From Candidatus Nomurabacteria bacterium (GTDB lineage Bacteria > Patescibacteriota > Minisyncoccia > Phycocordibacterales > UBA918): a stretch of DNA of 64,000 nucleotides. The DNA lies in NCBI GenBank assembly GCA_020632035.1, contig JACKGG010000004.1, forward strand, positions 3,575 to 67,574. The letters are read 5' to 3'. Under the pieces are notes generated by a model. It saw only the letters and a program-made list of their open reading frames with translations. It did no database searches and was not told the origin of the DNA. The translations under genes were made by a program, and so were the position numbers. Shown here one piece after another: positions 5,039 through 38,537 of the stretch (within the stretch, counting starts at the first letter, position 1; the number at the start of each line of letters is the position of its first letter).

Positions 5039-6364
5039 TTATTCGATATCTTTTAATTCTTCGATAATAATGATTTCTTCAGGGTCTTCAGCAAATGTTC
5101 GCTTCCAAAAAGGAGTGATGTGTACTATGGCTGAGCTGATCCCTGGATAAGCAGTGATAGCGTTATTAATAGCGGTTTTAGGTAGTCCAGCTAGATCATT
5201 AGCTAACTTCTTTGCATCATATTCCCAGATTAGTAGCGGTTTTCCTGTTAGCTTAAATGTTAAAGATGGTTCGTTAGCAATAATACTAGAGCTTGTGGTT
5301 GGTGATGTGTATTGGAAAGTAAGGGCAGTTGTGTCGTCAACTCTAACTGGCCCCCCTTCATATGTCGGTACAGTTTCTTTCGCTAGGAATGAACCAAATT
5401 CTGTTACTTGGAAAAGCGGGACCTGTAGTACAGACTGCTCTTTAATAGTGACTAAGTCTTGGCCGTATTCGACTGCTGGTAGTTGATTGTAGGTTATGGC
5501 TACTGAATCTTTAAAAGCAATAAAATCAGCAGGTTTTTCTGAGTCAATTCGCATTAGAAGATTGTCGCGAAGTTGTATTTGGAGAGCTTGTCTGGCAGTA
5601 CTTAGTTCACTTTCATCGATCTTGAACTGCGGACCACTGTAACCACCAGTAAAGCTCTCTGGATTGCGAGCTGTGATTGATTTGTATAGCTCAGTAAAAC
5701 CATTCTCTTCAAACCCAGGGATAGTGAATGCAGATCCAGCGGGAAGATTGTATTCTTCGCCCGGTTCATCGGCGAATACTTCGGCTTGAATAGTACCAGG
5801 AACGCTAGCGCCTTCTCCATCTTTAACTGCACCTGGAACAACTACAGATTCTTGGATTCTAAAGATTAAACCTCCAGGACCACGAAAACGTGTGTTTTTA
5901 ATTAGTCGCTCAGTCCCTGGTGTTGTTTTAATTATCTCGATCTTTCCTGTTGTTTGCTTTTCAACTTGTATCTGACCGGTTGCTTTCACTTGTGCTTCTC
6001 CAGTTGTTTCTAGGGTCATCACTTCGTAGCTAAGTGCAGCATCTCTTTTGTTGGGATAAGCAACGAATTCGGCACTAATATTTGGTGTACGATGTTCCGG
6101 ATTAATGGTAAGTTCTGTTTTTCCCATCAAGGCGCTAAGTCCGACTGCTCCTCCGACAATAACTATAAACAAGAAAACTGAGACAATTAGTCTGCGACTT
6201 TCTTTATTTGTTCCGTCTTGAATAACGATGCTTGGTATATGCTCACGCTCTGTAATAGCTTGTCTTACCGGAGCTGGCTCGGGAGAAGTACTAGTGGGTC
6301 TTGGTGCTCGCGATTTGCGGGGCTCCGCAGGTCTTATGTCCTGCAAGTTCCATTTTTTTGTCAT
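5039..6364 (-). CDS. membrane-anchored hypothetical protein (Pro-rich cytoplasmic N-terminus, one TM helix, large extracytoplasmic domain)
   Basis: 441 aa. Residues 1-55 are Pro/Arg/Ser-rich. A hydrophobic helix LIVSVFLFIVIVGGAVGLSALMG follows, then a large domain without recognisable motifs. Confidence 0.55.
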   Translation of the reverse strand: MTKKWNLQDIRPAEPRKSRAPRPTSTSPEPAPVRQAITEREHIPSIVIQDGTNKESRRLIVSVFLFIVIVGGAVGLSALMGKTELTINPEHRTPNISAEFVAYPNKRDAALSYEVMTLETTGEAQVKATGQIQVEKQTTGKIEIIKTTPGTERLIKNTRFRGPGGLIFRIQESVVVPGAVKDGEGASVPGTIQAEVFADEPGEEYNLPAGSAFTIPGFEENGFTELYKSITARNPESFTGGYSGPQFKIDESELSTARQALQIQLRDNLLMRIDSEKPADFIAFKDSVAITYNQLPAVEYGQDLVTIKEQSVLQVPLFQVTEFGSFLAKETVPTYEGGPVRVDDTTALTFQYTSPTTSSSIIANEPSLTFKLTGKPLLIWEYDAKKLANDLAGLPKTAINNAITAYPGISSAIVHITPFWKRTFAEDPEEIIIIEELKDIE

Positions 6365-6388: not shown

Positions 6389-7624
6389 TTAAAAGTATTC
6401 GTAGGTATCATATTGGTCTTTATTGTGGAAAAACTGGGCTGACAACAATAAAGCAGTGTCCGGAGGAACATTTTTCTGACTAGAGTTTTCGGTCTGGTCT
6501 TTGTAGCACAAATCTATAATTTTAGAAGAAATAGTAGTGATGATAGGTGAAGTTTTAAGGTTTCTTGTGACTGCCTTACCGATCAGGTCTGTGAACAAAG
6601 GTTCAGATTTAATGTCAGTGTGAAGCGAAATTCTCTTTGGAATAGATAAACTGTCTCCGGTTTCTTTAAATAACTCTGTGATCTTCTCTATGTAAGCTTC
6701 AAAAACTAACTCAACATCAACTTTTTGTTTTTCGTTTAAACTTGCCAAAAAAGCAAAAGGTTTTTCAGTATGTAAATAACCAAATGCCTCATGTAATGGA
6801 ATCTTGACTATTTGAGCGATTTCTCTTGCTAATGAAAATGAACCAAATGGTGTGTGTGTGCAATAAGTAAGAATTCCATCTCGTACAACGCCAATTTCTG
6901 TGGCTTCATAAGTAACATCTACTAGGCAGACATCGTAATTTTGGTTTAGAAGTTCTTTTGTCATCGTGTAAAGCATAAGAATAAAAGACAGTCTTCTGTT
7001 GTCAGCTTTAGCGAAAAGTTTGTCATGGATCTCATCCATGGCGTCTATTAGGTGTTGTTGGGCGACTGCTGTTCCTTGTGAAATTCCGAGGGTGTTAGAG
7101 CGGTTACCTTCTGGTTGGTTAATATGGTATCCGTTTGCAGTTAAATCCATAAGCAGTCTGGTAATAACCTTTAGACCAAGTGCACTTAATACCTCGTCTT
7201 GATTTATGTCATTCTTGATTTTGTCCCCGATCGCACTGTAGAGTTGAGCAATTAGTTCGTTGGTTATTTCAAAGTCATTCTCTTGAGTATAGTTAATAGA
7301 CTTGGTGATAGTGTAAGACCAAGGAGCAGAAATACCACATTGAAACTCGCCTAGCTCAGCCTTACTATCAAAATCGTACAGGTGCTTCCTCCCTTCTGCA
7401 TCTAGTTGCATAGAAGCATTGACCAGAGCGGTCATAATGGCTTTAGCACTTTGCTCCATAGAAGAAATATTTTTCAAAGGAACGTGCTCACGATGTGACC
7501 ATAGAATATCTGGGTGTAGTTTATTAGGGTCAGAATGCACGATAGAAGCTAAGACGCTCCCTGAGCCTATATCAATGATCACTCCGTAGCGAGTTTTTGC
7601 CTTGCTTAGGCCAAATAACGACAT
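6389..7624 (-). CDS. ASKHA-fold (actin/Hsp70/sugar-kinase superfamily) protein; Ppx/GppA- or FtsA/PilM-like, family unresolved
   Basis: N-terminal phosphate-1-like motif YGVIIDIGSGSVLASIV and a later DVCLVDVTYEATEIGVV (phosphate-2-like D-x-G/T-x-TE). 411 aa. The exact family cannot be decided by eye. Confidence 0.4.
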   Translation of the reverse strand: MSLFGLSKAKTRYGVIIDIGSGSVLASIVHSDPNKLHPDILWSHREHVPLKNISSMEQSAKAIMTALVNASMQLDAEGRKHLYDFDSKAELGEFQCGISAPWSYTITKSINYTQENDFEITNELIAQLYSAIGDKIKNDINQDEVLSALGLKVITRLLMDLTANGYHINQPEGNRSNTLGISQGTAVAQQHLIDAMDEIHDKLFAKADNRRLSFILMLYTMTKELLNQNYDVCLVDVTYEATEIGVVRDGILTYCTHTPFGSFSLAREIAQIVKIPLHEAFGYLHTEKPFAFLASLNEKQKVDVELVFEAYIEKITELFKETGDSLSIPKRISLHTDIKSEPLFTDLIGKAVTRNLKTSPIITTISSKIIDLCYKDQTENSSQKNVPPDTALLLSAQFFHNKDQYDTYEYF

Positions 7625-7688: not shown

Positions 7689-9629
7689 CTAGCTTTCAAG
7701 GACAGCCTTAATTCGCCGCACACCGGCAGAAGAAGATTCTTCCTTTTTAATCTTAAATGTACCACTAATGTTTTCCAGTGCTTCTACGTGGGGTCCTCCG
7801 CATAGCTCGCGCGAAAAAACTGTTCCGTCATTGCCTTTTACTGTGTAAACCTTTACTTCGTCAGGATAACGGTCCCAAAAACTGCCCTCCACAGTCGGAT
7901 CCTTCTCTGCTGTGTCCTTGCTCATCATGTCGATAGTAACCTTTCCTCCAGTTTGAATAGCTTTGTTTACCCAGGCTTCGATTTTGTCTAAAGTTTCCCG
8001 TTCGATTTTTTCAGGATGAGTGAAGTCAAAACGAAGGCGTTCCCCGGTGATATTTGAGCCAGCTTGGTGTACATGGTCTCCCAGAAAATGTCTAAGTGCA
8101 GCTAGAAGGAGGTGTGTACTAGTGTGATACTGAACCACTGTTTCAGAGTGATCAGCAAGTCCTCCTTTAAACTTTTGTTCAGCTCCTGCTCGAGACTTTT
8201 CTCGATGTTCCTCCATAAGCTTTTCAAAGCCGTCCTTGTCGACAATTAGTCCTTTCTCTTCAGCAATTTCTTCAGTTAACTCAATCGGAAAACCGTAAGT
8301 AGTAAATAAATCAAAGGCATTCTGAGCACTGATAGCTTTTTTTGTTACGGTTGATTCCTTGTCTAGAACTTTTTTACCGTCCACTATCTTGGTATTTACA
8401 TGAACCTGAAGTGAGATTTTATTAAACTGTTTGAGTCCATTTTCAAGTGTCTTGCGGAATTGCGCCTCTTCTTGAGTAATTGTTTGTTTTATTTCCTCCT
8501 CCTTATCCTTAAGATTTGTGTAATGTCCTTTGTAGGTTTGAATTACAGCTTCTGCGAGGTCAGAAAACATTCCCTCAGGAACTCCAATCATGTCAGCGTA
8601 GCGTACTGCTCTACGAAGTAGCCTCCGTACGAAATAACCTTGTTCAGTATTGCTTGGTAGTATGCCGTCTCCAATCATGAAAGTTGCTCCTCGAACATGA
8701 TCAGTCACAACTCTAAAAGCGACTAGATTATCTTCATATTTCTTTCCAGACAAGGTTTGGATTTTTTCAACCACATTCCAAAGTAAATCAACTTTAAACA
8801 TGTCATTCTCTTCTATTGCCGCTGCTGCGATACGCTCAAGACCTCCACCAAAATCAACGTTTTGCTTTGGTAGTTTTTCAAAGCCGTTTTCTGTCTTGAT
8901 GTATTCCATGAATACAGAATTCCCGATTTCAAGAAAACGTCCGCAGTCGCAGTTTGGGTGGCAGTGTTTACCAAACTTTGTGTCATGTGGAGTACCAAAA
9001 TCATAGAACACCTCACTATCAGGACCTCCTATTTCACCCACTGGCATGTTTTGAATCTTTCCAGCGCGCGTCCACCAGTTCTTACTTGCGTCGTAGTAAA
9101 AGATTCTTTCGCCTTCATTCATTCCCCTTTCACCACCCTCTTCTTCTGAGCCCATTTCAGCCACGCCAGCAGAGATACCTTTCTCAGTGAAGAGTTTCTT
9201 CCATATGTCTACAGCTTCTGTATCTTTGGGAACATTTGCTTTTTCGTCACCAATAAATGTTGTAACGTATATATTTTCTGGATTAAGTCCTACTTCGTCA
9301 GTCAAAAATGAATAGAACCAAGGAAGTTGTTCTTGTTTAAAATAGTCACCCAGTGACCAGTTTCCAAGCATTTCGAAAAAAGTAGTGTGTCGATTATCTC
9401 CCACTTCTTCTATGTCCTCAGCTCGAAAGCACTTCTGTGAGTCAGTTAGCTTGGTGCCCTTTGGGTGGGTTTCTCCCATCAGGTACGGTACAAGTGGCTG
9501 CATACCGCTACCGGTAAAAAGAGTCGTCGGGTCATTTTCTGGTACAAGAGCAGATGACGGAATAACAGCATGGCCGTTTTTGGCCATGAAATCTAGGTAT
9601 TTTTTACGAATGTCGTTGCCTTTGTTCAT
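7689..9629 (-). CDS. alaS: alanine--tRNA ligase, short form (catalytic, tRNA-recognition and editing domains; C-terminal C-Ala domain absent)
   Basis: N-terminus IRKKYLDFMAKNGHAVIPSSALVPENDPTTLFTGSGMQP matches AlaRS motif 1. An editing-domain HxxxH block is present (TSTHLLLAALRHFLGDHVHQAGS). Only 646 aa versus about 870 in typical bacteria. Confidence 0.9.
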   Translation of the reverse strand: MNKGNDIRKKYLDFMAKNGHAVIPSSALVPENDPTTLFTGSGMQPLVPYLMGETHPKGTKLTDSQKCFRAEDIEEVGDNRHTTFFEMLGNWSLGDYFKQEQLPWFYSFLTDEVGLNPENIYVTTFIGDEKANVPKDTEAVDIWKKLFTEKGISAGVAEMGSEEEGGERGMNEGERIFYYDASKNWWTRAGKIQNMPVGEIGGPDSEVFYDFGTPHDTKFGKHCHPNCDCGRFLEIGNSVFMEYIKTENGFEKLPKQNVDFGGGLERIAAAAIEENDMFKVDLLWNVVEKIQTLSGKKYEDNLVAFRVVTDHVRGATFMIGDGILPSNTEQGYFVRRLLRRAVRYADMIGVPEGMFSDLAEAVIQTYKGHYTNLKDKEEEIKQTITQEEAQFRKTLENGLKQFNKISLQVHVNTKIVDGKKVLDKESTVTKKAISAQNAFDLFTTYGFPIELTEEIAEEKGLIVDKDGFEKLMEEHREKSRAGAEQKFKGGLADHSETVVQYHTSTHLLLAALRHFLGDHVHQAGSNITGERLRFDFTHPEKIERETLDKIEAWVNKAIQTGGKVTIDMMSKDTAEKDPTVEGSFWDRYPDEVKVYTVKGNDGTVFSRELCGGPHVEALENISGTFKIKKEESSSAGVRRIKAVLES

Positions 9630-9687
9630 AGATTCAATAATTTACAGTATTGTGAATATAACACAATACTGTAAATCAATGTAGAAG

Positions 9688-9963
9688 TTACTGAGACAGG
9701 ATAGCAGCTGCGTTTAGGGCGCACTCTGAGCCAAAGCAGGTTAGCATTGAAACAAAGTCATAGAAGTAAATTTCCATACCGTAGCCAGCCACGATAAGAA
9801 CTAATCCAGCTATAGTAAGTGAATGTTCAAGCCTAAAGCTTTTGAGGACTAACTTGTCTATTTTGCGTTCGTGAGCGAGCTCTGTATGCGCAATAAGCAC
9901 TCCAACTGCGAGCATTGCTTTGCCGATTGTTCCAACTGTAAGACCCCAAAAAAGTAAATTCAT
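9688..9963 (-). CDS. small hydrophobic membrane protein, hypothetical
   Basis: 91 aa with two or three predicted TM helices, sitting between the M16 peptidase pair and alaS on the same strand. Confidence 0.4.
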   Translation of the reverse strand: MNLLFWGLTVGTIGKAMLAVGVLIAHTELAHERKIDKLVLKSFRLEHSLTIAGLVLIVAGYGMEIYFYDFVSMLTCFGSECALNAAAILSQ

Positions 9964-9976
9964 ATTAGAAACATTA

Positions 9977-11308
9977 TTACACAGACTTAATAAAATCTTT
10001 GATGTTCTTTTGAACAGTTTTAGTTGGTCCCGCGCCCGAGATGGTTAAGTTGTTAGGGTTTAGGTATGTTTTTATTGCTTTATTTACCTCATCAAGAGTT
10101 AGAGAATTGACTCTATTCTTATGTTCCTTCATCTCATCCAACGAAAAACCGTTGTAATGATAAGAGTGAAGATCACTCAACAGTCCACCGATTGAGTCGT
10201 TAAGAAGGACTTGGCTGGTGTTCATAATCGTCTTAAACTTTTCCAGCTCCGCTTTCGTAATACCTTTATTATAGAGTTTTTTGATTTCTCGAAAAGTAGA
10301 TTCAAGTCCTTGTAGTGCCTTGTCTGGCGCGAAGAAAGTGATAATTCTCCAGTAACCCTGCTCTGTTCCAGAAAAGCCTTCTAACTTTGCGTAGATTCCA
10401 TAGGTCAGACCTTCCAATTCTCGAACAGTACTCATAAGTCGTCCCGAAAAGCCTCCCCACCTTCCTAACACTGCTAATCCAAGACTGAGTGGGACGTAAT
10501 CAGGATGATGTAATGTGATTGGTAGTGGAGCACCAATGCTGAAATCGATGTTAGAACGACTAGGTATGTTACTCAAAACCGCCACTTGTTTCGGAGTCTT
10601 TTGTTGATGGATAGAAGTGGTATCCTTGCAAGAAAAATTATTAGTTATTCTCTTCACAGTTTTGTGAAGTTTTTCACATTCAGTTGAGTTGCCGGCGATG
10701 CTACATGTCCAGTTGCGACTAAGAACCTTACTGTGTAGAGCCTTGATGTGTCTAACTTGAGTTGTTTTGACACACTCAATAGTTTCCTCTATTGGGTATG
10801 TGTACTTTCGGTCACTGAATCCATAAATAGTATTAAGTAGATTTTCCTGAGCAATACTCTTTGAGTCTTCTTTTGATTCGATAAGTTCGTTGTGTACAGT
10901 AGTGCGAATTCTTTGTAGTTCGGCTTTCGAAAATAACGGTGAAATCATCATCGCTTCAAAAAGACTCAAAAGCTTTCCAAAATGTTCCTTTCTAGACTTT
11001 AGGGAAAAAGTCACTACTCCGCTTCCAACATTTACGCTTAAAGTTGCGCCTAAAGTATTTACAGCGTTTAGAAATTCCTCTCTTGTGTGCTTATCTGTTC
11101 CAGAAAGTATCGCGTCCCCATACATTAATTGCGCTGACTGATCTGCTACAGTTCTTTCGTCATGAACATCGACTGTAATTAGCGCGCTAACAGTTGGTGT
11201 TTGCTTAGGAATAATAGTTGCTAGTGAGTAGTTCTCAGATTTATTTATGTGGTATTTCATACTAGTTTTTCCCAACAAAGTAGCCAATAGTAAGGTTGTT
11301 TTCTTCAA
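9977..11308 (-). CDS. M16-family (pitrilysin/insulinase-like) peptidase, non-catalytic partner subunit
   Basis: 443 aa. Has the M16 two-domain architecture but no HxxEH motif. Lies immediately downstream of, and overlapping, the catalytic M16 gene, as in typical M16B pairs. Confidence 0.7.
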   Translation of the reverse strand: MKKTTLLLATLLGKTSMKYHINKSENYSLATIIPKQTPTVSALITVDVHDERTVADQSAQLMYGDAILSGTDKHTREEFLNAVNTLGATLSVNVGSGVVTFSLKSRKEHFGKLLSLFEAMMISPLFSKAELQRIRTTVHNELIESKEDSKSIAQENLLNTIYGFSDRKYTYPIEETIECVKTTQVRHIKALHSKVLSRNWTCSIAGNSTECEKLHKTVKRITNNFSCKDTTSIHQQKTPKQVAVLSNIPSRSNIDFSIGAPLPITLHHPDYVPLSLGLAVLGRWGGFSGRLMSTVRELEGLTYGIYAKLEGFSGTEQGYWRIITFFAPDKALQGLESTFREIKKLYNKGITKAELEKFKTIMNTSQVLLNDSIGGLLSDLHSYHYNGFSLDEMKEHKNRVNSLTLDEVNKAIKTYLNPNNLTISGAGPTKTVQKNIKDFIKSV

Positions 11309-13428: not shown

Positions 13429-14217
13429 CTATTTAATTTTGTTAGCAAAATGGATTGCTTGCAGTTTCTTTCCTGCTGCTTCCCGATACGGACAAAATTC
13501 ACATGAGTCACCAGATGGTGGCAAGTCTTTTTCATTAAGGCAGGCTTTAATTTCTGCTAGCGTGGAGTTTATCCAGCTGACATCGGCTTCTACCGGTACT
13601 AAGGTTGTCTCAAATATAAGTTTGTCTCCAAACTCCGGTAATGATTTGTCAGCATTTGCATAGACTAAGTACCCGGTTGGTTGGACACTAAAACCATTCA
13701 TCTCTAGTAGCCACTTATAGACCCCAAGCTGGCGTGTGTATTGCTTCTCCCATGGACTATCACCCAGTTTGTCGATCCGCCCTTCTTTTGAGGTTGATTT
13801 ATAATCTACAATGATAAGTGAGCCGTCTGGCGCGACCCAGATGTCATCTACTCCCCCGCTTACGGTCAGACCTGTTGGTTTATGTGTATGTGTAATACCG
13901 ACAAATGGGTCGCGCCAGGTATCCATGTTTTTATGTTCAAAAGGTACAGCGTCAATTTTAAATTTTTTCATTATCGGGTGCGGTTTTTGGGTTTTTCGGT
14001 ATTTATCAAACTCTTTCTTAAACAATTCGTCTACAGCGATGTTTAAATTAAATGATGGAAAACCAGGGCGCTTAGTTCCTAAAACGTTATCAAGATAGAA
14101 ACATCTTGGACACTCAAAAAAGAAGTCGATTTTTGACCTAGATAGTCGCCACTTTTCTCCACCGTAGTTCCACTCAGCTTTTCGATTAGGGTTGTATTTA
14201 TATGTATATTCTGCCAT
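13429..14217 (-). CDS. PD-(D/E)xK nuclease superfamily protein with Cas4/AddB-like cysteine pairs (putative Fe-S cluster)
   Basis: Nuclease core signature ...VDDIWVAPDGSLIIVDYKST (D...D-x-K). An N-terminal CPRC plus a C-terminal CEFCPY match the Cas4-like Cys arrangement. Confidence 0.55.
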   Translation of the reverse strand: MAEYTYKYNPNRKAEWNYGGEKWRLSRSKIDFFFECPRCFYLDNVLGTKRPGFPSFNLNIAVDELFKKEFDKYRKTQKPHPIMKKFKIDAVPFEHKNMDTWRDPFVGITHTHKPTGLTVSGGVDDIWVAPDGSLIIVDYKSTSKEGRIDKLGDSPWEKQYTRQLGVYKWLLEMNGFSVQPTGYLVYANADKSLPEFGDKLIFETTLVPVEADVSWINSTLAEIKACLNEKDLPPSGDSCEFCPYREAAGKKLQAIHFANKIK

Positions 14218-14279: not shown

Positions 14280-14480
14280 TTAGTCACCCCATTTGTTAGG
14301 GTAGATAATCACATACGTCATCCATCCAAAAACGAATGTGAGCGCTGAGTCGAACAATTTCAGATCGAATGCTTGTCCGAGCTCCTCTACGTTTACGTTG
14401 TATGTCCAAACATTATTGTTAAGGTAAACAAAAATGAAAAACATACATACAATTAAGCTGATCAGGATGCGCATACTCAC
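14280..14480 (-). CDS. small membrane protein, hypothetical
   Basis: 66 aa with one hydrophobic helix ILISLIVCMFFIFVYL. Support is weak. Confidence 0.3.
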   Translation of the reverse strand: MSMRILISLIVCMFFIFVYLNNNVWTYNVNVEELGQAFDLKLFDSALTFVFGWMTYVIIYPNKWGD

Positions 14481-14597: not shown

Positions 14598-15149
14598 CTA
14601 TTTAGCAGTGAATGTATCGAAGATTTTGTCGATCTGAACATCTCCGGCCAGACTGAAGTCGTAATCACCATCCTCAGTAAAGATTACTACAGCGTATTGT
14701 CGATCTGGTGTTGTGGAACGTTGCAAGATAATTTCGGATGGTACTAGACCGTATGATTCGCTGAATCGAACTACACCAAGAATATAGCCAAGTTTACCAT
14801 CATTGTACTCTCGTACGCCGATCCATCCTTCGCTAACTGGGTATACTGCGCTTTCTAGTTTTACTGAAGCAGATGCTTCCTGGTCCTCTACATTAACTGA
14901 GCCGTCACCAACCTCTAGTACTGGAAGTTCCTTCATAACTTCTTGATCTGTTGTCCCTCCAGTATTGTCTGTGTTTGGTACAGTAACGGTCTCTGATTCC
15001 ACTACTTCTGCTGAACTATCGTCCTTCATGTCTCCATCAGGAGCATTAGCACTAGGGCCAGAAAAAGCCCAAACTAACATTCCGCCGATAAGGAGTCCGA
15101 CTACGAAGGCAACTAATGTCTTCTGTCCGTCTTGTTTTTCTTCTGCCAT
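14598..15149 (-). CDS. membrane-anchored hypothetical protein with an acidic extracytoplasmic domain
   Basis: 183 aa. The N-terminal TM helix LVAFVVGLLIGGMLVWAF is followed by an Asp/Glu/Thr-rich region. Confidence 0.45.
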   Translation of the reverse strand: MAEEKQDGQKTLVAFVVGLLIGGMLVWAFSGPSANAPDGDMKDDSSAEVVESETVTVPNTDNTGGTTDQEVMKELPVLEVGDGSVNVEDQEASASVKLESAVYPVSEGWIGVREYNDGKLGYILGVVRFSESYGLVPSEIILQRSTTPDRQYAVVIFTEDGDYDFSLAGDVQIDKIFDTFTAK

Positions 15150-25242: not shown

Positions 25243-25322
25243 ATATACTAGTATGTAACAACCTAATGAGAAGTAAAGTTCCAGTAATAAATAAAGGGCG
25301 ACCGAAGTCGCCCTTAAGGTAA

Positions 25323-25763
25323 TCAGGCCATCCGTGGAAACGGCGGACTCATTACATCGGTATTCCTTATGTATACATGACTGAAACCAAACGTAGAAAG
25401 ATAGTATTTTTGTAAATACTCTGCCTCACGGAGACCCGCCATGTACTCAGCCGAACCAACTTTGTAGGTTGGATAATAATCAATGTAACCTTCAATCAGA
25501 CCCTGACAGAATTTTCGATACTTAACAGAGTCCAAAATATGTTTTTCCCATATCTTGCATGCGTTTGTCGTGGGAGAAATAAAATGATTTCGACCGTTTA
25601 TTCTACTACACCAGTGCAAAAGCAAAAAGTGTCTGTATTCATGCTCAGATTCTTTTACTAAGCTTGAGTACCAGTTGCTACTGTTTTGCGCTTGCCTTAT
25701 GTATTCTTCGAAATTTGCCTCCCTAATCATGGCGACAGCTTCAGATTCTGTACGAATAAGCAT
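25323..25763 (-). CDS. hypothetical protein
   Basis: 146-aa ORF with no recognisable motif. Lies immediately downstream (on the minus strand) of the peptide islet. Confidence 0.4.
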   Translation of the reverse strand: MLIRTESEAVAMIREANFEEYIRQAQNSSNWYSSLVKESEHEYRHFLLLHWCSRINGRNHFISPTTNACKIWEKHILDSVKYRKFCQGLIEGYIDYYPTYKVGSAEYMAGLREAEYLQKYYLSTFGFSHVYIRNTDVMSPPFPRMA

Positions 25764-25990
25764 CTAATACCTTCCTCTTGATTTACTTGTAGAACAAAAC
25801 GACGCTGAATATATCACTCTTGGAACTGAAGTCAAATATACTCCCACAGTTTATACTTGTCGTGCAAATATATGTGTGGAGAAAGACGCACTAGAAAACT
25901 CTAAATCAAGCAATTAATACTATGCATAAAATTTTTGACGAATATAATTACCAAATGCAGTCAACTTACTCAGAATAAAAACCTACTTCA

Positions 25991-26016
25991 ATAAAAAAGC
26001 CACCCTTGGGTGGCTA
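25991..26016 (-). terminator. intrinsic terminator for a minus-strand transcript (hairpin AGCCACCC-TTG-GGTGGCT with the T-run on the minus strand)
   Basis: aaaaaagccacccttgggtggct lies about 30 nt past the stop of the 26045..26347 reading frame. Confidence 0.5.
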
Positions 26017-26044
26017 AATTGTGTTGCCTACTAAGGCAACAATG

Positions 26045-26347
26045 TTAGGACCAGGGCCACCATGGCCAGAAATAACGTTGGCTGCCAACTCGCCGGGAGC
26101 AGTCAACAACGGTTTCTCCGCTGCACGCAGAAACCGTTACCTCTGGTTCTGCAGATACAGCCATTTCTTGTGGTGCAGCCACCGCAAGGGAAGAAGCGGC
26201 GACTATACCCACAAGAGAAGCATCATTACTCCTTTCTTTTTCATAATGGCAATCTCCTTGTTGTGCCGTCGAAGGGTTTAGTACTGCACCAGTAGAGACG
26301 ACATCCACAGACACTAAAATTATGTCATCTTTTATAGTGAATTGCAA
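26045..26347 (-). pseudogene. frame-disturbed paralogue of the adjacent secreted-peptide gene; the open frame ends ...SACSGETVVDCSRRVGSQRYFWPWWPWS
   Basis: The 100-codon frame has no ATG (TTG at 26347). A strong SD (AAGGAG) and ATG at 26244 lie in a neighbouring frame and give MKKKGVMMLLLWV-stop. Splicing that frame onto the long one would yield a textbook signal peptide (MKKKGVMMLLL/VGIVAASSLAVAA-PQE...). A third minus-strand frame encodes a Cys-rich string (CFSCGYSRRFFPCGGCTTRNGCICRTRGNGFCVQRRNRC) without a start codon. Confidence 0.3.
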
Positions 26348-26494
26348 GTAACTTTCTTGTATGTTGGAATGAATAGGTTTATTAGGTTAAAACTAAATTA
26401 CCACACTAAGTAACAACGTCTAAACAAAAAACATAAATTTGGATCAAGTATTGCAAATCAAATATAAAGATTAAAACTATCATTACGAAGCGCA

Positions 26495-26521
26495 TAAGAA
26501 AACCACCCGCAAGAGTGGTTA
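26495..26521 (-). terminator. intrinsic terminator for the minus-strand peptide gene (hairpin AACCAC-CCGCAAGA-GTGGTT, minus-strand T-run)
   Basis: Located 28 nt downstream of the stop codon at 26549. Confidence 0.5.
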
Positions 26522-26548
26522 ATGGTGAAAGTTCCCAGAACCCGTAGA

Positions 26549-26752
26549 CTAGAAATTCTGGGGTGTAAGACCCTTTCTAGCTCTTGAGCATACTGCAACA
26601 TCTGGGTTGCAGGCCGGAGGAGGAACCCTGAACGTAATTGGTACTACTTCATCCTCCACCGCTTCTGGAGCGGTAAGGGGGCTGCAAACAAGTAATCCAA
26701 GAAGGAATATAAACCCTAGGATTACAGTACTACTTGCGATTCTTATGAACAT
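26549..26752 (-). CDS. small secreted peptide precursor (signal peptide plus about 40-aa acidic/Pro-rich peptide with one Cys-x6-Cys loop)
   Basis: The ATG at 26752 is preceded by caccAAAGGAGaaaaaac. The product is MFIRIASSTVILGFIFLLGLLVCSPLTA-PEAVEDEVVPITFRVPPPACNPDVAVCSRARKGLTPQNF. It has its own terminator. The ORF-track version is extended to an upstream in-frame Met. Confidence 0.55.
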   Translation of the reverse strand: MFIRIASSTVILGFIFLLGLLVCSPLTAPEAVEDEVVPITFRVPPPACNPDVAVCSRARKGLTPQNF

Positions 26753-26849
26753 GTTTTTTCTCCTTTGGTGACGGCTTTGCCACAGACTTCTGATACTATA
26801 ACACATATCGTTGCTATTTGCAAGCTTATTGTAATATGAAAAATTATTA

Positions 26850-26859
26850 ATGATATAAT
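26850..26859 (+). promoter_or_regulatory. extended -10 promoter element (TGaTATAAT) placed so that transcription would start at or next to the ATG at 26866 (leaderless mRNA)
   Basis: The sequence ttattaaTGaTATAATccctgtATG has a consensus extended -10 ending 7 nt before the start codon, with no SD. Confidence 0.35.
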
Positions 26860-26865
26860 CCCTGT

Positions 26866-37870: not shown

Positions 37871-37873
37871 TAG

Positions 37874-37946
37874 TGGACTCTAGCGGACTTGAACCGCTCG
37901 CCTCTTCCATGCCATGGAAGCGCTCTACCGGATGAGCTAAGAGCCC
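37874..37946 (-). tRNA. tRNA-Ala (anticodon GGC), 73 nt, CCA not encoded
   Basis: The reverse complement folds into a cloverleaf. Acceptor stem GGGCTCT/AGAGTCC includes the G3:U70 AlaRS identity pair. D stem GCTC/GAGC. Anticodon stem CTTCC/GGAAG with loop ATGGCAT. T stem AGCGG/CCGCT with loop TTCAAGT. Discriminator A. Confidence 0.75.
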
Positions 37947-37967
37947 GGTGATCGAGATTTTAGCATA

Positions 37968-37998
37968 AAGAAAAACAGCGCGCATGTGCTGTTTTTCT
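37968..37998. terminator. A-run/hairpin/T-run element (CAGCGC-GCAT-GTGCTG) with the same flanks (aaaaac...ttttcttaatgtgg) as the terminator inside each 201-bp unit
   Basis: agaaaaacagcgcgcatgtgctgtttttcttaatgtgg immediately precedes (in plus coordinates) the first tRNA 3'-end copy. Confidence 0.45.
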
Positions 37999-38006
37999 TA
38001 ATGTGG

Positions 38007-38408
38007 TGGACTCGACAGGACTTGGTCACCTTCGTTAAGTACTTTATTCGCTAACGCTCAAAAGATACTAAACTACGCGACCCCGCCGTTCACATCGTCC
38101 TCACTTCGTTCCGGGCGATATGTTCACTCTTTTCAAGTCCTGACGAAAGCTAACGCTTTCTTCTCGTCCACACATAACAAAAACCGCTCACGCGGTTTTC
38201 TTATGTGTGGACTCGACAGGACTTGGTCACCTTCGTTAAGTACTTTATTCGCTAACGCTCAAAAGATACTAAACTACGCGACCCCGCCGTTCACATCGTC
38301 CTCACTTCGTTCCGGGCGATATGTTCACTCTTTTCAAGTCCTGACGAAAGCTAACGCTTTCTTCTCGTCCACACATAACAAAAACCGCTCACGCGGTTTT
38401 CTTATGTG
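38007..38408. repeat. two perfectly identical 201-bp tandem units, each carrying a copy of the tRNA-Ala(UGC) T-loop/3' end and an A-run/hairpin/T-run terminator (ACCGC-TCAC-GCGGT); followed by a degenerate third copy at 38409..38477
   Basis: Positions 38007-38207 and 38208-38408 read identically by eye. In minus-strand orientation each unit ends ...CAAGT-CCTGT-CGAGTCC-A followed by CCA (unit 1, 38004-38006) or CAC (unit 2). This is the exact complement of the 5' acceptor strand GGGCTCG of the truncated tRNA at 38478..38537. The third copy ends CCTGTCCA (a 7-nt deletion removes the acceptor strand). Confidence 0.85.
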
Positions 38409-38477
38409 GACAGGATTCACCTTCGTCAGTACCTTCGTTAAAGATACTTTTCAACTACGCGATCGCTAACGCCTTCA

Positions 38478-38537
38478 ACTTGAACCCGCTACCTCCTCAG
38501 TGCAAATGAGGCGCTCTACCAGATGAGCTACGAGCCC
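38478..38537 (-). tRNA. tRNA-Ala (anticodon UGC), nucleotides 1-60 only (5' acceptor strand through T-loop); the matching 3' segment is displaced into the tandem repeats, so this is a probable disrupted gene
   Basis: Reverse complement: GGGCTCG-TA-GCTC-ATCTGGTA-GAGC-G-CCTCA-TTTGCAC-TGAGG-AGGTA-GCGGG-TTCAAGT. After that the sequence diverges (TGAAGGCG...) instead of giving the 3' T-stem strand. Valid 3' partners (CCTGT-CGAGTCC-A, with two G:U pairs in the T stem and G3:U70) occur at 38008..38024 and 38209..38225. Confidence 0.55.

What the first reader, a model, noticed from the sequence alone, without database searches (positions are those of the whole stretch)
26021..26347. GC-rich islet with a frame-disturbed paralogue ending in the indolicidin-like motif FWPWWPW, plus a latent Cys-rich frame and a 10-bp perfect hairpin
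About 300 bp are much more GC-rich than their surroundings, and all three minus-strand frames are partly open. Frame A ends ...AVAAPQEMAVSAEPEVTVSACSGETVVDCSRRVGSQRYFWPWWPWS. It has an acidic pro-region and a Cys-x6-Cys pair like the downstream peptide, so the two are paralogues. WPWWPW is the hexamer core of the bovine antimicrobial peptide indolicidin (ILPWKWPWWPWRR). The only good translation start (AAGGAG, 9 nt, ATG at 26244) is in frame B and gives MKKKGVMMLLLWV-stop. Joined to frame A by a -1 shift, it would create a perfect signal peptide. Frame C encodes a start-less string of 39 aa with nine cysteines. A 10-bp perfect stem (AACGGTTTCT...AGAAACCGTT, 26108..26138) lies inside. A minus-strand terminator follows at 25991..26016. 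This is either a recently inactivated or error-containing secreted-peptide gene, a recoding event, or a structured RNA.
Basis: partly seen in the sequence, partly recalled or inferred. Interest (0 to 1): 0.65.

Follow-up and report, generated by a model that had tools for sequence, protein, structure and literature searches.

The report
Frameshifted allele of a secreted-peptide gene
This is a real but broken gene: in this strain of a tiny uncultured (Patescibacteria) bacterium one missing G cuts off a 66-residue secreted peptide with a tryptophan/proline-rich tail, while other public samples of the same species carry the intact gene.

Summary
On the minus strand, 26347..25992 is a self-contained unit: promoter-like site, AAGGAG, ATG 26244, terminator. 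It is the most GC-rich 200 nt of the window. The ATG frame stops after 13 codons, and the -1 frame runs on to ...YFWPWWPWS.

Two public contigs of the same species (ENA ERZ27309186, Logan SRR6747738) carry one extra G between 26216 and 26215.

The window and two further assemblies share the 1-nt deletion. It is linked to a SNP and does not lie in a homopolymer. It is therefore a real null allele present in natural populations, not an assembly error, not recoding, and not primarily an ncRNA.

The gene and its intact neighbour (26752..26549) sit in a ~1 kb cassette that the nearest sequenced species lacks. Both peptides are orphans among billions of proteins. The two units share a promoter and 5'-end module.

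The mRNA is predicted to be unusually structured (z about -5.5), with SD and AUG paired to the WPWWPW codons.

Function is inferred only: a Sec-exported, disulfide-looped propeptide with a cationic Trp/Pro tail that acts on membranes. The indolicidin match is a resemblance, not homology.

The parts
26319..26347 (-). Promoter-like site of unit 2: TTGCAA, 17 nt, CATAAT with TG upstream
   Evidence: 9 of 12 matches, extended -10. It has the same architecture as the unit 1 promoter.
26305..26312 (-). GTCTGTGG 8-mer at the predicted transcript 5' end, shared with unit 1 (26787..26780)
   Evidence: there are only 4 copies on both strands of the window. Two of them sit at the same offset (6-7 nt) after the two promoter-like -10 boxes.
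26254..26259 (-). Shine-Dalgarno AAGGAG, 9 nt before the ATG
   Evidence: AAGGAG-N5-10-ATG occurs 5 times in the window, and 3 of these are in the two peptide units. Most genes of this genome have no SD.
26203..26244 (-). Truncated reading frame of this strain: ATG 26244, 13 codons (MKKKGVMMLLLWV), TAG 26205..26203
26215..26216 (-). Site of the 1-nt deletion. Intact alleles read ...ATGCTTCTGCTTGTG...; the window reads ...ATGCTTCT-CTTGTG...
   Evidence: The extra G is present in L083 (ENA ERZ27309186) and L086 (Logan SRR6747738). It is absent in the window, L001 (JGI 3300010350) and L084 (Logan SRR776449).
26045..26215 (-). Rest of the peptide gene, now out of frame with the ATG: rest of the signal peptide (from Val12), acidic stretch, Cys41 (26125..26123), Cys49 (26101..26099), RRVGSQRY, FWPWWPWS, stop TAA 26047..26045
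   Evidence: On L086 it is called as part of a 66-aa gene.
26051..26068 (-). Codons for WPWWPW. In the predicted fold, 26064..26056 pair with the start region 26250..26242. SD bases 26258..26255 pair with 26050..26047, outside this feature.
   Evidence: pair probabilities 0.82-0.86. for the indolicidin sequence ILPWKWPWWPWRR.
26108..26138 (-). 10-bp perfect hairpin over the Cys-loop codons, part of a multi-branched mRNA fold
26022..26041 (-). 8-bp hairpin between the stop codon and the terminator
   Evidence: pair probability 0.96.
25992..26015 (-). Intrinsic terminator: AGCCACC CAAG GGTGGCT plus a T-run
26498..26823 (-). Unit 1, the intact sister gene. Promoter-like site 26823..26795; GTCTGTGG 26787..26780; AAGGAG 26765..26760; 67-aa ORF 26752..26549 (MFIRIASS...ACNPDVAVCSRARKGLTPQNF); terminator 26520..26501
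   Evidence: It is identical in L082, L083 and L086.
25860..26845 (-). Cassette of about 1 kb holding both units, absent from the nearest sequenced species (L002). Boundaries are approximate.
   Evidence: There is no similar DNA in the plasmid or phage collections.

Best explanation
The region is a small stand-alone gene on the minus strand for a 66-residue secreted peptide precursor. In the strain of this window the gene carries a genuine 1-nt deletion: a G is lost between 26216 and 26215, in codon 10. Translation from the only good start (AAGGAG, 9 nt, ATG 26244) therefore stops after 13 codons, and the peptide is not made.

Shown: the intact allele exists in other natural populations of the same species. 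It encodes MKKKGVMMLLLVGIVAASSLAVA|APQEMAVSAEPEVTVSACSGETVVDCSRRVGSQRYFWPWWPWS.

Inferred from the sequence:
- The first ~23 residues are a Sec signal peptide (KKK, a 17-residue hydrophobic core, AVA cleavage motif).
- The exported 43-residue product has an acidic front half and one disulfide loop (Cys41-Cys49).
- Its cationic Trp/Pro-rich tail (SRRVGSQRYFWPWWPWS, +3, four Trp) would lodge in membrane interfaces.
- It would then act on other cells (competitors or the host of this episymbiont-type bacterium), in the manner of Trp-rich antimicrobial peptides.

The gene and an intact sister gene 0.5 kb upstream form a ~1 kb lineage-specific cassette. They share a promoter/5'-end module and strong SD sites in a genome that otherwise rarely uses SD.

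The mRNA is predicted to fold tightly, with SD and AUG paired to the 3' end of the ORF. This suggests that translation is held back. The high GC content, the open off-frames, the Cys-rich frame C and the hairpin are by-products of this Ala/Val/Pro/Trp-rich, structured coding sequence.
For: 1. Intact allele. L086 carries a called 66-aa gene with exactly the joined sequence. L083 has the same extra G.

2. The deletion is real.
- It is shared by the window, L001 and L084, which are separate assemblies with private differences at 26291, 25599 and 25332.
- The intact allele is linked to C at 25950.
- The context CTTCT(G)CTT is not a homopolymer.

3. Gene signals. Promoter-like site and terminator; AAGGAG plus ATG.

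4. Sister unit. It has the same layout and shares CTTGCAA-N13-TGN-NATANT-N6/7-GTCTGTGG. The peptide alignment after the signal peptide beats shuffles: global p 0.0055, local p 0.03.

5. Cassette. It is absent in the closest species, L002 (YchF 95% identical). The site is hypervariable across 80 related genomes.

6. RNA fold.
- MFE is -128.8 kcal/mol with z -5.55. The SD-to-stop segment has z -6.1.
- The region ranks 4th of 256 minus-strand windows.
- The intact allele folds equally well.
- The fold is still more stable than 97.5% of synonymous-codon permutations.

7. WPWWPW equals residues 6-11 of indolicidin.
Against: - No outgroup carries the cassette. That the intact form is ancestral rests on coding logic only (SD, ATG and signal peptide in one frame; the sister gene has the same design).
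- The deletion allele is the more frequent one among the assemblies found (3 of 5). It could therefore be tolerated, or even favoured.
- No homologue exists anywhere else, so function cannot be transferred from a known family. The signal-peptide call is by inspection; no predictor was available.
- There is no adjacent immunity, transporter or processing gene.
- Codon-usage scoring did not favour the true frame in the first 13 codons, and the peptide part is atypical for host genes.
- The RNA fold is a prediction with no covariation support.
Confidence: 0.8

Rival explanations
1. Assembly or sequencing error: the genome really has the G, and the gene is intact in this organism too.
For: Single-base indels are the commonest assembly error. 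L001 also shows a 1-nt indel in the neighbouring gene g146, so indels do occur among these contigs.
Against: - The same deletion occurs in three separately assembled datasets: the window, JGI 3300010350 and SRR776449.
- Those contigs carry their own private SNPs.
- The two alleles are linked to different bases at 25950.
- The site is not a homopolymer.
Confidence: 0.04
2. The deletion allele still yields peptide by non-standard decoding. One route is a -1 slip at G-AAA-AAG (codons 2-3), helped by the SD 11 nt upstream. It would give MKKERSNDASLVGIVAASSLAVAA.... The other is termination-reinitiation at the frame-A GTG (26213), 8 nt before the TAG.
For: - AAA-AAG is a known slip-prone pair, and the SD spacing resembles the dnaX arrangement (established knowledge).
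- Frame A scores as coding through 26244..26206 (p about 0.014).
- Frame A stays open for 100 codons.
- The deletion allele is common (3 of 5 assemblies).
Against: - The intact allele shows that the normal gene needs no shift.
- G-AAA-AAG is not a canonical X-XXY-YYZ heptamer.
- The next helix starts only 3 nt downstream and is weak.
- There is no slippery motif between the deletion and the stop.
- The deletion is too recent for an open frame A to carry any information.
- The reinitiation product would lack the charged n-region.
Confidence: 0.07
3. The unit is primarily a structured non-coding RNA (or a type I toxin-like, RNA-controlled locus), and the ORF is secondary.
For: - z is -5.5 to -6.1, placing the region in the top 1.5% of windows.
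- The fold is stronger on the minus strand than on the plus strand (-4.1 against -2.6).
- SD and AUG are sequestered by the 3' end in unit 2. The SD is also paired to a 3' segment in unit 1.
- The indel does not change the fold.
Against: - A clean 66-aa ORF with SD, ATG and a signal-peptide-like N-terminus exists in the intact allele.
- Much of the stability follows from the peptide and codon composition: z is only -2.5 against synonymous permutations.
- No Rfam family matches.
- No antisense promoter/terminator pair was found.
- No diverged copies are available for covariation analysis.
- The peptides have long hydrophilic tails and an AXA site, unlike most type I toxins.
Confidence: 0.07
4. 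The real product is the long frame-A protein (89 aa from GTG 26314, as called by JGI, or 100 aa from TTG 26347).
For: - Frame A is open over 100 codons.
- The upstream 34 codons score like genes (12.3; 9.5% of non-gene open windows do as well).
- The one SNP in L001 (26291) is synonymous in this frame.
- Most genes here lack SD, so a missing SD is not an objection.
Against: - The promoter-like site overlaps these codons and puts the transcript start at about 26312. GTG lies only 4 nt after the -10 box, whereas leaderless genes here have 6-7 nt and ATG.
- In the intact allele the upstream frame-A stretch is out of frame with the peptide.
- phmmer against 1.84 billion proteins found only the self hit and a spurious repeat protein.
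Confidence: 0.02

Closest known systems
Indolicidin (bovine cathelicidin-derived peptide ILPWKWPWWPWRR-NH2) and other Trp/Pro-rich antimicrobial peptides such as tritrpticin
   Same: The hexamer WPWWPW is identical. The Trp/Pro-rich segment lies at the C-terminus of a precursor that has a signal peptide and a more acidic pro-part. Arginines lie next to the Trp cluster.
   Different: There is no cathelin domain and no Pfam match at all. The origin is bacterial (Patescibacteria). The arginines precede the Trp block rather than follow it. There is no C-terminal Gly for amidation. A disulfide loop lies upstream. The similarity is one hexamer whose codons are also predicted to pair with the start region of the mRNA, so this is resemblance or convergence, not homology.
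Sec-dependent (signal-peptide) unmodified bacteriocins of Gram-positive bacteria, e.g. enterocin P type (from general knowledge)
   Same: It is a small stand-alone gene with its own promoter and terminator, a classical N-terminal signal peptide with an AXA site, a small cationic/aromatic mature part with one disulfide, and a lineage-specific, patchy distribution.
   Different: No sequence similarity exists. There is no YGNGV box. No immunity gene lies next to it. An acidic pro-like stretch follows the signal peptide. Activity is untested.
Type I toxin mRNAs with fold-back inhibition (hok/sok type; from general knowledge)
   Same: It is a short ORF with a hydrophobic N-terminus in a highly structured transcript, where the SD and start are paired with the 3' end. 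There are tandem copies in an intergenic region.
   Different: No antisense RNA signals were found. The peptide has a cleavable-looking signal and a 43-residue hydrophilic part. No homology exists.
Ordinary strain-level frameshift pseudogene (null allele)
   Same: A single-base deletion truncates the ORF, and intact alleles are present in conspecific populations.
   Different: Nothing is different. This part is ordinary.

Membership tests
Frameshift null allele (pseudogene) of a protein-coding gene | An intact, single-frame version of the same gene exists in close relatives | tested here: met
   L083 and L086 are otherwise identical in the unit 2 region shown; each differs from the window only by the extra G and one SNP at 25950. 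Both have an uninterrupted 66-aa ORF.
Frameshift null allele (pseudogene) of a protein-coding gene | The disruption is a real mutation rather than an assembly error | tested here: met
   Three independent assemblies share the deletion. It is linked to a SNP at 25950 and is not in a homopolymer. Read-level data were not available.
Programmed -1 ribosomal frameshift | The two-frame arrangement is conserved in relatives | tested here: not met
   Conspecific contigs L083 and L086 encode the product in one frame.
Programmed -1 ribosomal frameshift | Slippery X-XXY-YYZ heptamer in the overlap, with a stimulatory structure 5-9 nt downstream | tested here: not met
   The overlap 26216..26205 reads CUU CUC UUG UGG GUA UAG, which has no heptamer. 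The only slip-prone site is G-AAA-AAG at codons 2-3, with a weak helix 3 nt downstream.
Cathelicidin / indolicidin | Cathelin-like pro-domain in the precursor | tested here: not met
   A Pfam scan of the frame-A product found no family. phmmer found no relatives.
Cathelicidin / indolicidin | Trp/Pro-rich cationic C-terminal peptide (WPWWPW core) | tested here: met
   FWPWWPWS is preceded by RRVGSQRY. The indolicidin sequence is from PMC4457802.
Sec-dependent bacteriocin-like peptide | N-terminal Sec signal peptide (positive n-region, hydrophobic core, AXA site) | tested here: met
   By inspection of the intact allele: MKKKG / VMMLLLVGIVAASSL / AVA-A. No dedicated predictor was available.
Sec-dependent bacteriocin-like peptide | Adjacent immunity gene | tested here: not met
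   The cassette holds only the two peptide units. The neighbour g146 is also present in L002, which lacks the peptides.
Sec-dependent bacteriocin-like peptide | Antimicrobial activity of the mature peptide | not testable with these tools
   This needs synthetic peptide assays.
Type I toxin-antitoxin | Antisense or overlapping small RNA gene | tested here: not met
   There is no convincing plus-strand promoter and terminator pair over the unit.
Type I toxin-antitoxin | Highly structured toxin mRNA with a sequestered ribosome-binding site | tested here: met
   z is -5.5, and SD/AUG have unpaired probabilities mostly below 0.15. This is a prediction only.
Known structured RNA family (Rfam) | Match to a covariance model at or near its gathering score | tested here: not met
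   Searches gave only sub-threshold chance hits on the terminator hairpins.

The most novel reading that the evidence does not exclude
The cassette encodes a bacterial counterpart, arrived at independently, of the cathelicidin design: signal peptide, anionic pro-part and a Trp/Pro-rich cationic warhead. An ultra-small Patescibacteria cell would use it against competitors or on its host's membrane. Expression would be held in check by a fold-back mRNA, and on/off alleles would be kept in natural populations because the peptide is costly or self-toxic.
Probability: 0.15. Interest if true: 0.6.

Novelty: new member of a known kind. Interest (0 to 1): 0.35.

Why it matters
The frame puzzle has an ordinary answer: one lost base, with the intact allele still circulating in other populations. 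What remains of interest is modest but concrete.

- The pair of orphan peptide genes is lineage-specific and SD-led, in a Patescibacteria genome whose other genes look mostly leaderless.
- One of the two genes carries an exact indolicidin core hexamer.
- Both genes sit on tightly folded mRNAs.

Secreted effectors of these episymbiotic bacteria are almost unknown, and a 17- to 43-residue peptide is cheap to synthesise and test. The natural null and intact alleles offer a ready-made comparison. The case is also a caution for gene callers: the public JGI annotation turned the broken gene into an 89-aa artefact ORF (P0001).

Tried and rejected
1. Lost A in the run ATGAAAAAG. Codon-usage scoring favoured frame A over frame B for 26244..26206 (p about 0.014). 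That led me to suspect a lost A or a -1 slip there, giving MKKERSND.... The intact allele shows the lesion is a missing G at 26216/26215, so this idea is rejected.

2. Homologue searches for both peptides. The 5.8-billion-protein word search found only self hits, P0001 and P0002. phmmer against 1.84 billion representatives found the self hit plus P0003, a 3073-aa repeat protein. Its score comes from five weak repeats (single-pair BLAST E about 1e-4). I judged it spurious.

3. Orthologous loci. Eighty related genomes were fetched through YchF. None has the peptides, and the nearest (L002) lacks the whole cassette.

4. Metagenome scans. Exact-protein look-up of g146 succeeded instead.

5. Mobile-element origin. 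There is no similar DNA in plasmids or phages and no relative in viral contigs. No terminal repeats or target duplications flank the cassette.

6. Known families. Pfam found nothing for either peptide or for g146. Rfam found nothing.

7. Sample origin. A literature search for the sample accessions gave only unrelated partial-string hits.

8. Frame C (8 Cys in 39 aa). It has no start codon, no SD and a very poor codon score. It is rejected as a by-product.

Full report
**What is in the sequence**

On the minus strand, 26347..25992 has the layout of a small independent gene.
- A promoter-like site lies at 26347..26319: TTGCAA, 17 nt, CATAAT, with an upstream TG.
- The only strong ribosome-binding site is AAGGAG (26259..26254), 9 nt before ATG 26244.
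- An intrinsic terminator lies at 26015..25998, followed by a T-run.

The ATG frame reads MKKKGVMMLLLWV and stops at TAG 26205..26203. The -1 frame is open from 26347 to 26045 and ends ...SACSGETVVDCSRRVGSQRYFWPWWPWS.

The 200 nt from 26001 are 55% GC. That is the maximum of the whole window, which has mean 40% and sd 4.4%. The 10-bp hairpin at 26108..26138 is real.

- Frame C has 8 cysteines, not 9.
- This peptide has C-x7-C. The neighbour has C-x6-C.
- The neighbour lies upstream on the coding strand.

**Where the window comes from**

The YchF gene of the window found 80 related loci. All are Patescibacteria (Paceibacteria/Parcubacteria MAGs). The best is JACKGI010000002.1, 'Candidatus Nomurabacteria' HK-STAS-PATE-30, at 95% protein identity.

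The gene order YchF, g89 (weak, sub-threshold DUF3467 match), g299 (DUF5671), LeuRS is conserved. The gap between g89 and g299 is hypervariable. It carries different cargo in different genomes: HIT-like, nuclease-like and HD proteins, and ~330-aa acidic secreted proteins.

In the closest species, L002, g89 and g146 are about 40 bp apart. In the window, about 1 kb lies between them (approximately 26845..25860). So the finding and its neighbour form a lineage-specific cassette.

**The decisive result**

Exact-sequence look-ups of neighbouring proteins retrieved further public contigs of the same species, all at least 99.8% identical. Five sequences cover the shift region.
- Three have the window's sequence ...ATGCTTCT-CTTGTGGGT...: the window, L001 (JGI 3300010350) and L084 (Logan SRR776449).
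- Two read ...ATGCTTCTGCTTGTGGGT...: L083 (ENA ERZ27309186) and L086 (Logan SRR6747738).

With the extra G, the ATG at 26244 opens one uninterrupted 66-codon frame: MKKKGVMMLLLVGIVAASSLAVAAPQEMAVSAEPEVTVSACSGETVVDCSRRVGSQRYFWPWWPWS. It is called as a 66-aa gene on L086.

Several facts show that the deletion is a real allele.
- The intact allele is linked to C at 25950, where the window has T.
- The deletion-type contigs carry private differences at 26291, 25599 and 25332.
- The context is not a homopolymer.

The missing G is therefore a real allele present in natural populations, not an assembly error. The 89-aa protein P0001 in the public collection is the gene caller's response to the broken frame.

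**What this excludes**

- Recoding is not needed. The normal gene is in one frame. Between the deletion and the stop there is no slippery heptamer.
- The only slip-prone site is G-AAA-AAG at codons 2-3, with the SD 11 nt upstream. A low-level -1 slip there cannot be excluded but has no support.
- I had first favoured a lost A in that run, because codon statistics preferred frame A for the first 13 codons. The intact allele refutes that.
- The long frame-A ORF from GTG 26314 or TTG 26347 overlaps the promoter-like site. It does not fit the leaderless pattern of this genome, which is TATAAT, 6-7 nt, ATG.

**The sister gene and paralogy**

Unit 1 has the same layout.
- Promoter-like site: 26823..26795.
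- AAGGAG: 26765..26760.
- ORF: 26752..26549, 67 aa, MFIRIASSTVILGFIFLLGLLVCSPLTAPEAVEDEVVPITFRVPPPACNPDVAVCSRARKGLTPQNF.
- Terminator: 26520..26501.

It is intact in all contigs.

BLASTP between the two peptides is not significant (E 0.31). The parts after the signal peptide do align better than shuffles (global p 0.0055). Shared motifs are AP[EQ], E.EV and AC-x6/7-CSR.

More telling, both units share CTTGCAA-N13-TGN-NATANT, then 6-7 nt, then GTCTGTGG. That 8-mer occurs only four times on both strands of the window. Common origin is therefore likely.

Both units use AAGGAG. Only 8 of 44 genes in the window have any SD-like 4-mer, and many look leaderless. Both peptide ORFs have atypical codon usage for the host. 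This fits, but does not prove, acquisition from elsewhere.

No related DNA or protein was found in any of these sources:
- plasmids, phages and viral contigs;
- 5.8 billion clustered proteins;
- 1.84 billion representatives.

**RNA structure**

The predicted transcript 26312..25995 folds to -128.8 kcal/mol, with z -5.55 against dinucleotide shuffles.
- The SD-to-stop segment has z -6.1. For the 268-nt segment 26312..26045 the minus strand has z -4.1 and the plus strand only -2.6.
- In a scan of 256 minus-strand windows, this region ranks fourth.
- In the fold, the SD bases (26258..26255) pair with 26050..26047. GCCAUUAUG (26250..26242) pairs with CAUGGUGGC (26064..26056), which are the WPWWPW codons. 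Pair probabilities are 0.82-0.86.
- The intact allele folds equally well. Permuting synonymous codons while keeping the peptide leaves the native sequence more stable than 97.5% of permutations (z -2.5).

So much of the stability follows from the peptide's composition, but some excess remains.

Unit 1 is less structured (z -2.1). Its SD is also predicted to pair with a segment between the stop codon and the terminator.

I read this as an mRNA feature that holds back translation. It is prediction only, because no diverged copies exist for covariation analysis. No Rfam family matches, and no antisense promoter/terminator pair was seen.

**Most likely mechanism**

Shown:
- Gene signals are present.
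- The intact allele exists.
- This strain carries a truncating deletion.

Inferred:
- The precursor is exported by Sec: MKKKG, a 17-residue hydrophobic core, and AVA-A.
- The 43-residue product has four Glu and one Asp in front, and a Cys41-Cys49 loop.
- It ends in the tail SRRVGSQRYFWPWWPWS (+3, four Trp, two Pro).

Trp-rich cationic tails partition into membrane interfaces. WPWWPW is the core of indolicidin, ILPWKWPWWPWRR (PMC4457802). A membrane-active secreted peptide is the best guess, at perhaps 30%. It would be directed at competitors or at the host cell of this episymbiont-type bacterium. In the window's strain it is not made.

**Comparison with known systems**

- It is not a cathelicidin. 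There is no cathelin domain and no Pfam hit.
- It resembles Sec-dependent bacteriocins in design, but lacks similarity to them and lacks an immunity gene.
- It shares the fold-back mRNA idea with type I toxins, but lacks an antisense RNA.
- It fully meets the definition of a frameshift null allele.

**Verdict**

The frame disturbance itself is ordinary. The orphan peptide pair, the exact indolicidin hexamer and the structured mRNAs are mildly interesting and cheaply testable. Interest 0.35; new member of a known kind.

Noticed in passing
window 38006..38407 (minus-strand context 37873..38537): A 201-nt unit is duplicated in perfect tandem (100% identical). Each copy holds a long terminator-like hairpin. 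The repeat lies between tRNA-Ala(GGC) at 37873..37946 and an odd tRNA-like match at 38481..38537 (57 nt, 35 bits), which ARAGORN does not call. The region gives extreme fold z-scores (-10.8, -8.1). No Rfam family matches at E<=0.1. It could be a repeated element downstream of a degenerate tRNA, or an assembly artefact.
   Followed up: partly
window 9501..9716, minus strand: An intergenic stretch between ORFs 7689..9629 and 9977..11308 has a very stable predicted fold (z -7.5, second most extreme of 256 windows). There is no Rfam match at E<=0.1. It may be an unannotated structured RNA or leader.
   Followed up: partly
whole window (gene starts listed): Only 8 of 44 genes have any SD-like 4-mer upstream. 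Many have a TATAAT-like hexamer 6-7 nt before the ATG (for example 26866, 13429..14217, 6389..7624, 5039..6364), which suggests widespread leaderless mRNAs in this Patescibacteria genome. AAGGAG-N5-10-ATG occurs 5 times on both strands, 3 of them in the two peptide units. One more is at 14474 (minus), in the gap between ORFs 13429..14217 and 14598..15149, and was not examined.
   Followed up: partly
window 25243..26865 and loci L002-L081 (gap between the g89 and g299 homologues): The divergent intergenic site between the small g89 gene (weak DUF3467 match) and the DUF5671 membrane protein ranges from about 60 bp to 2.6 kb across 80 related genomes. It holds different cargo in different genomes: HIT-like, endonuclease/exonuclease/phosphatase-like and HD-domain proteins. 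In several genomes it holds ~320-366-aa acidic secreted proteins that begin with a signal peptide and a CSxxG[YF]xxSxGxC loop. It looks like an insertion hot spot.
   Followed up: partly
L001 position ~957 = window 25599: The JGI contig Ga0116244_10260056 lacks one A of an AAA run inside g146. This splits that 146-aa gene into two called ORFs, whereas the window, L002 and four other contigs have it intact. It is a second single-base indel difference within 1.2 kb of the same population.
   Followed up: no
window 26606..26612 / 26593..26599 and 26108..26138: In both peptide units the codons of the Cys loop form a strong local hairpin: CUGCAAC/GUUGCAG in unit 1 and GGUUUCU/AGAAACC in unit 2, with pair probabilities above 0.9. 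The stem sequences are unrelated. With only two sequences, this cannot be told apart from coincidence.
   Followed up: no
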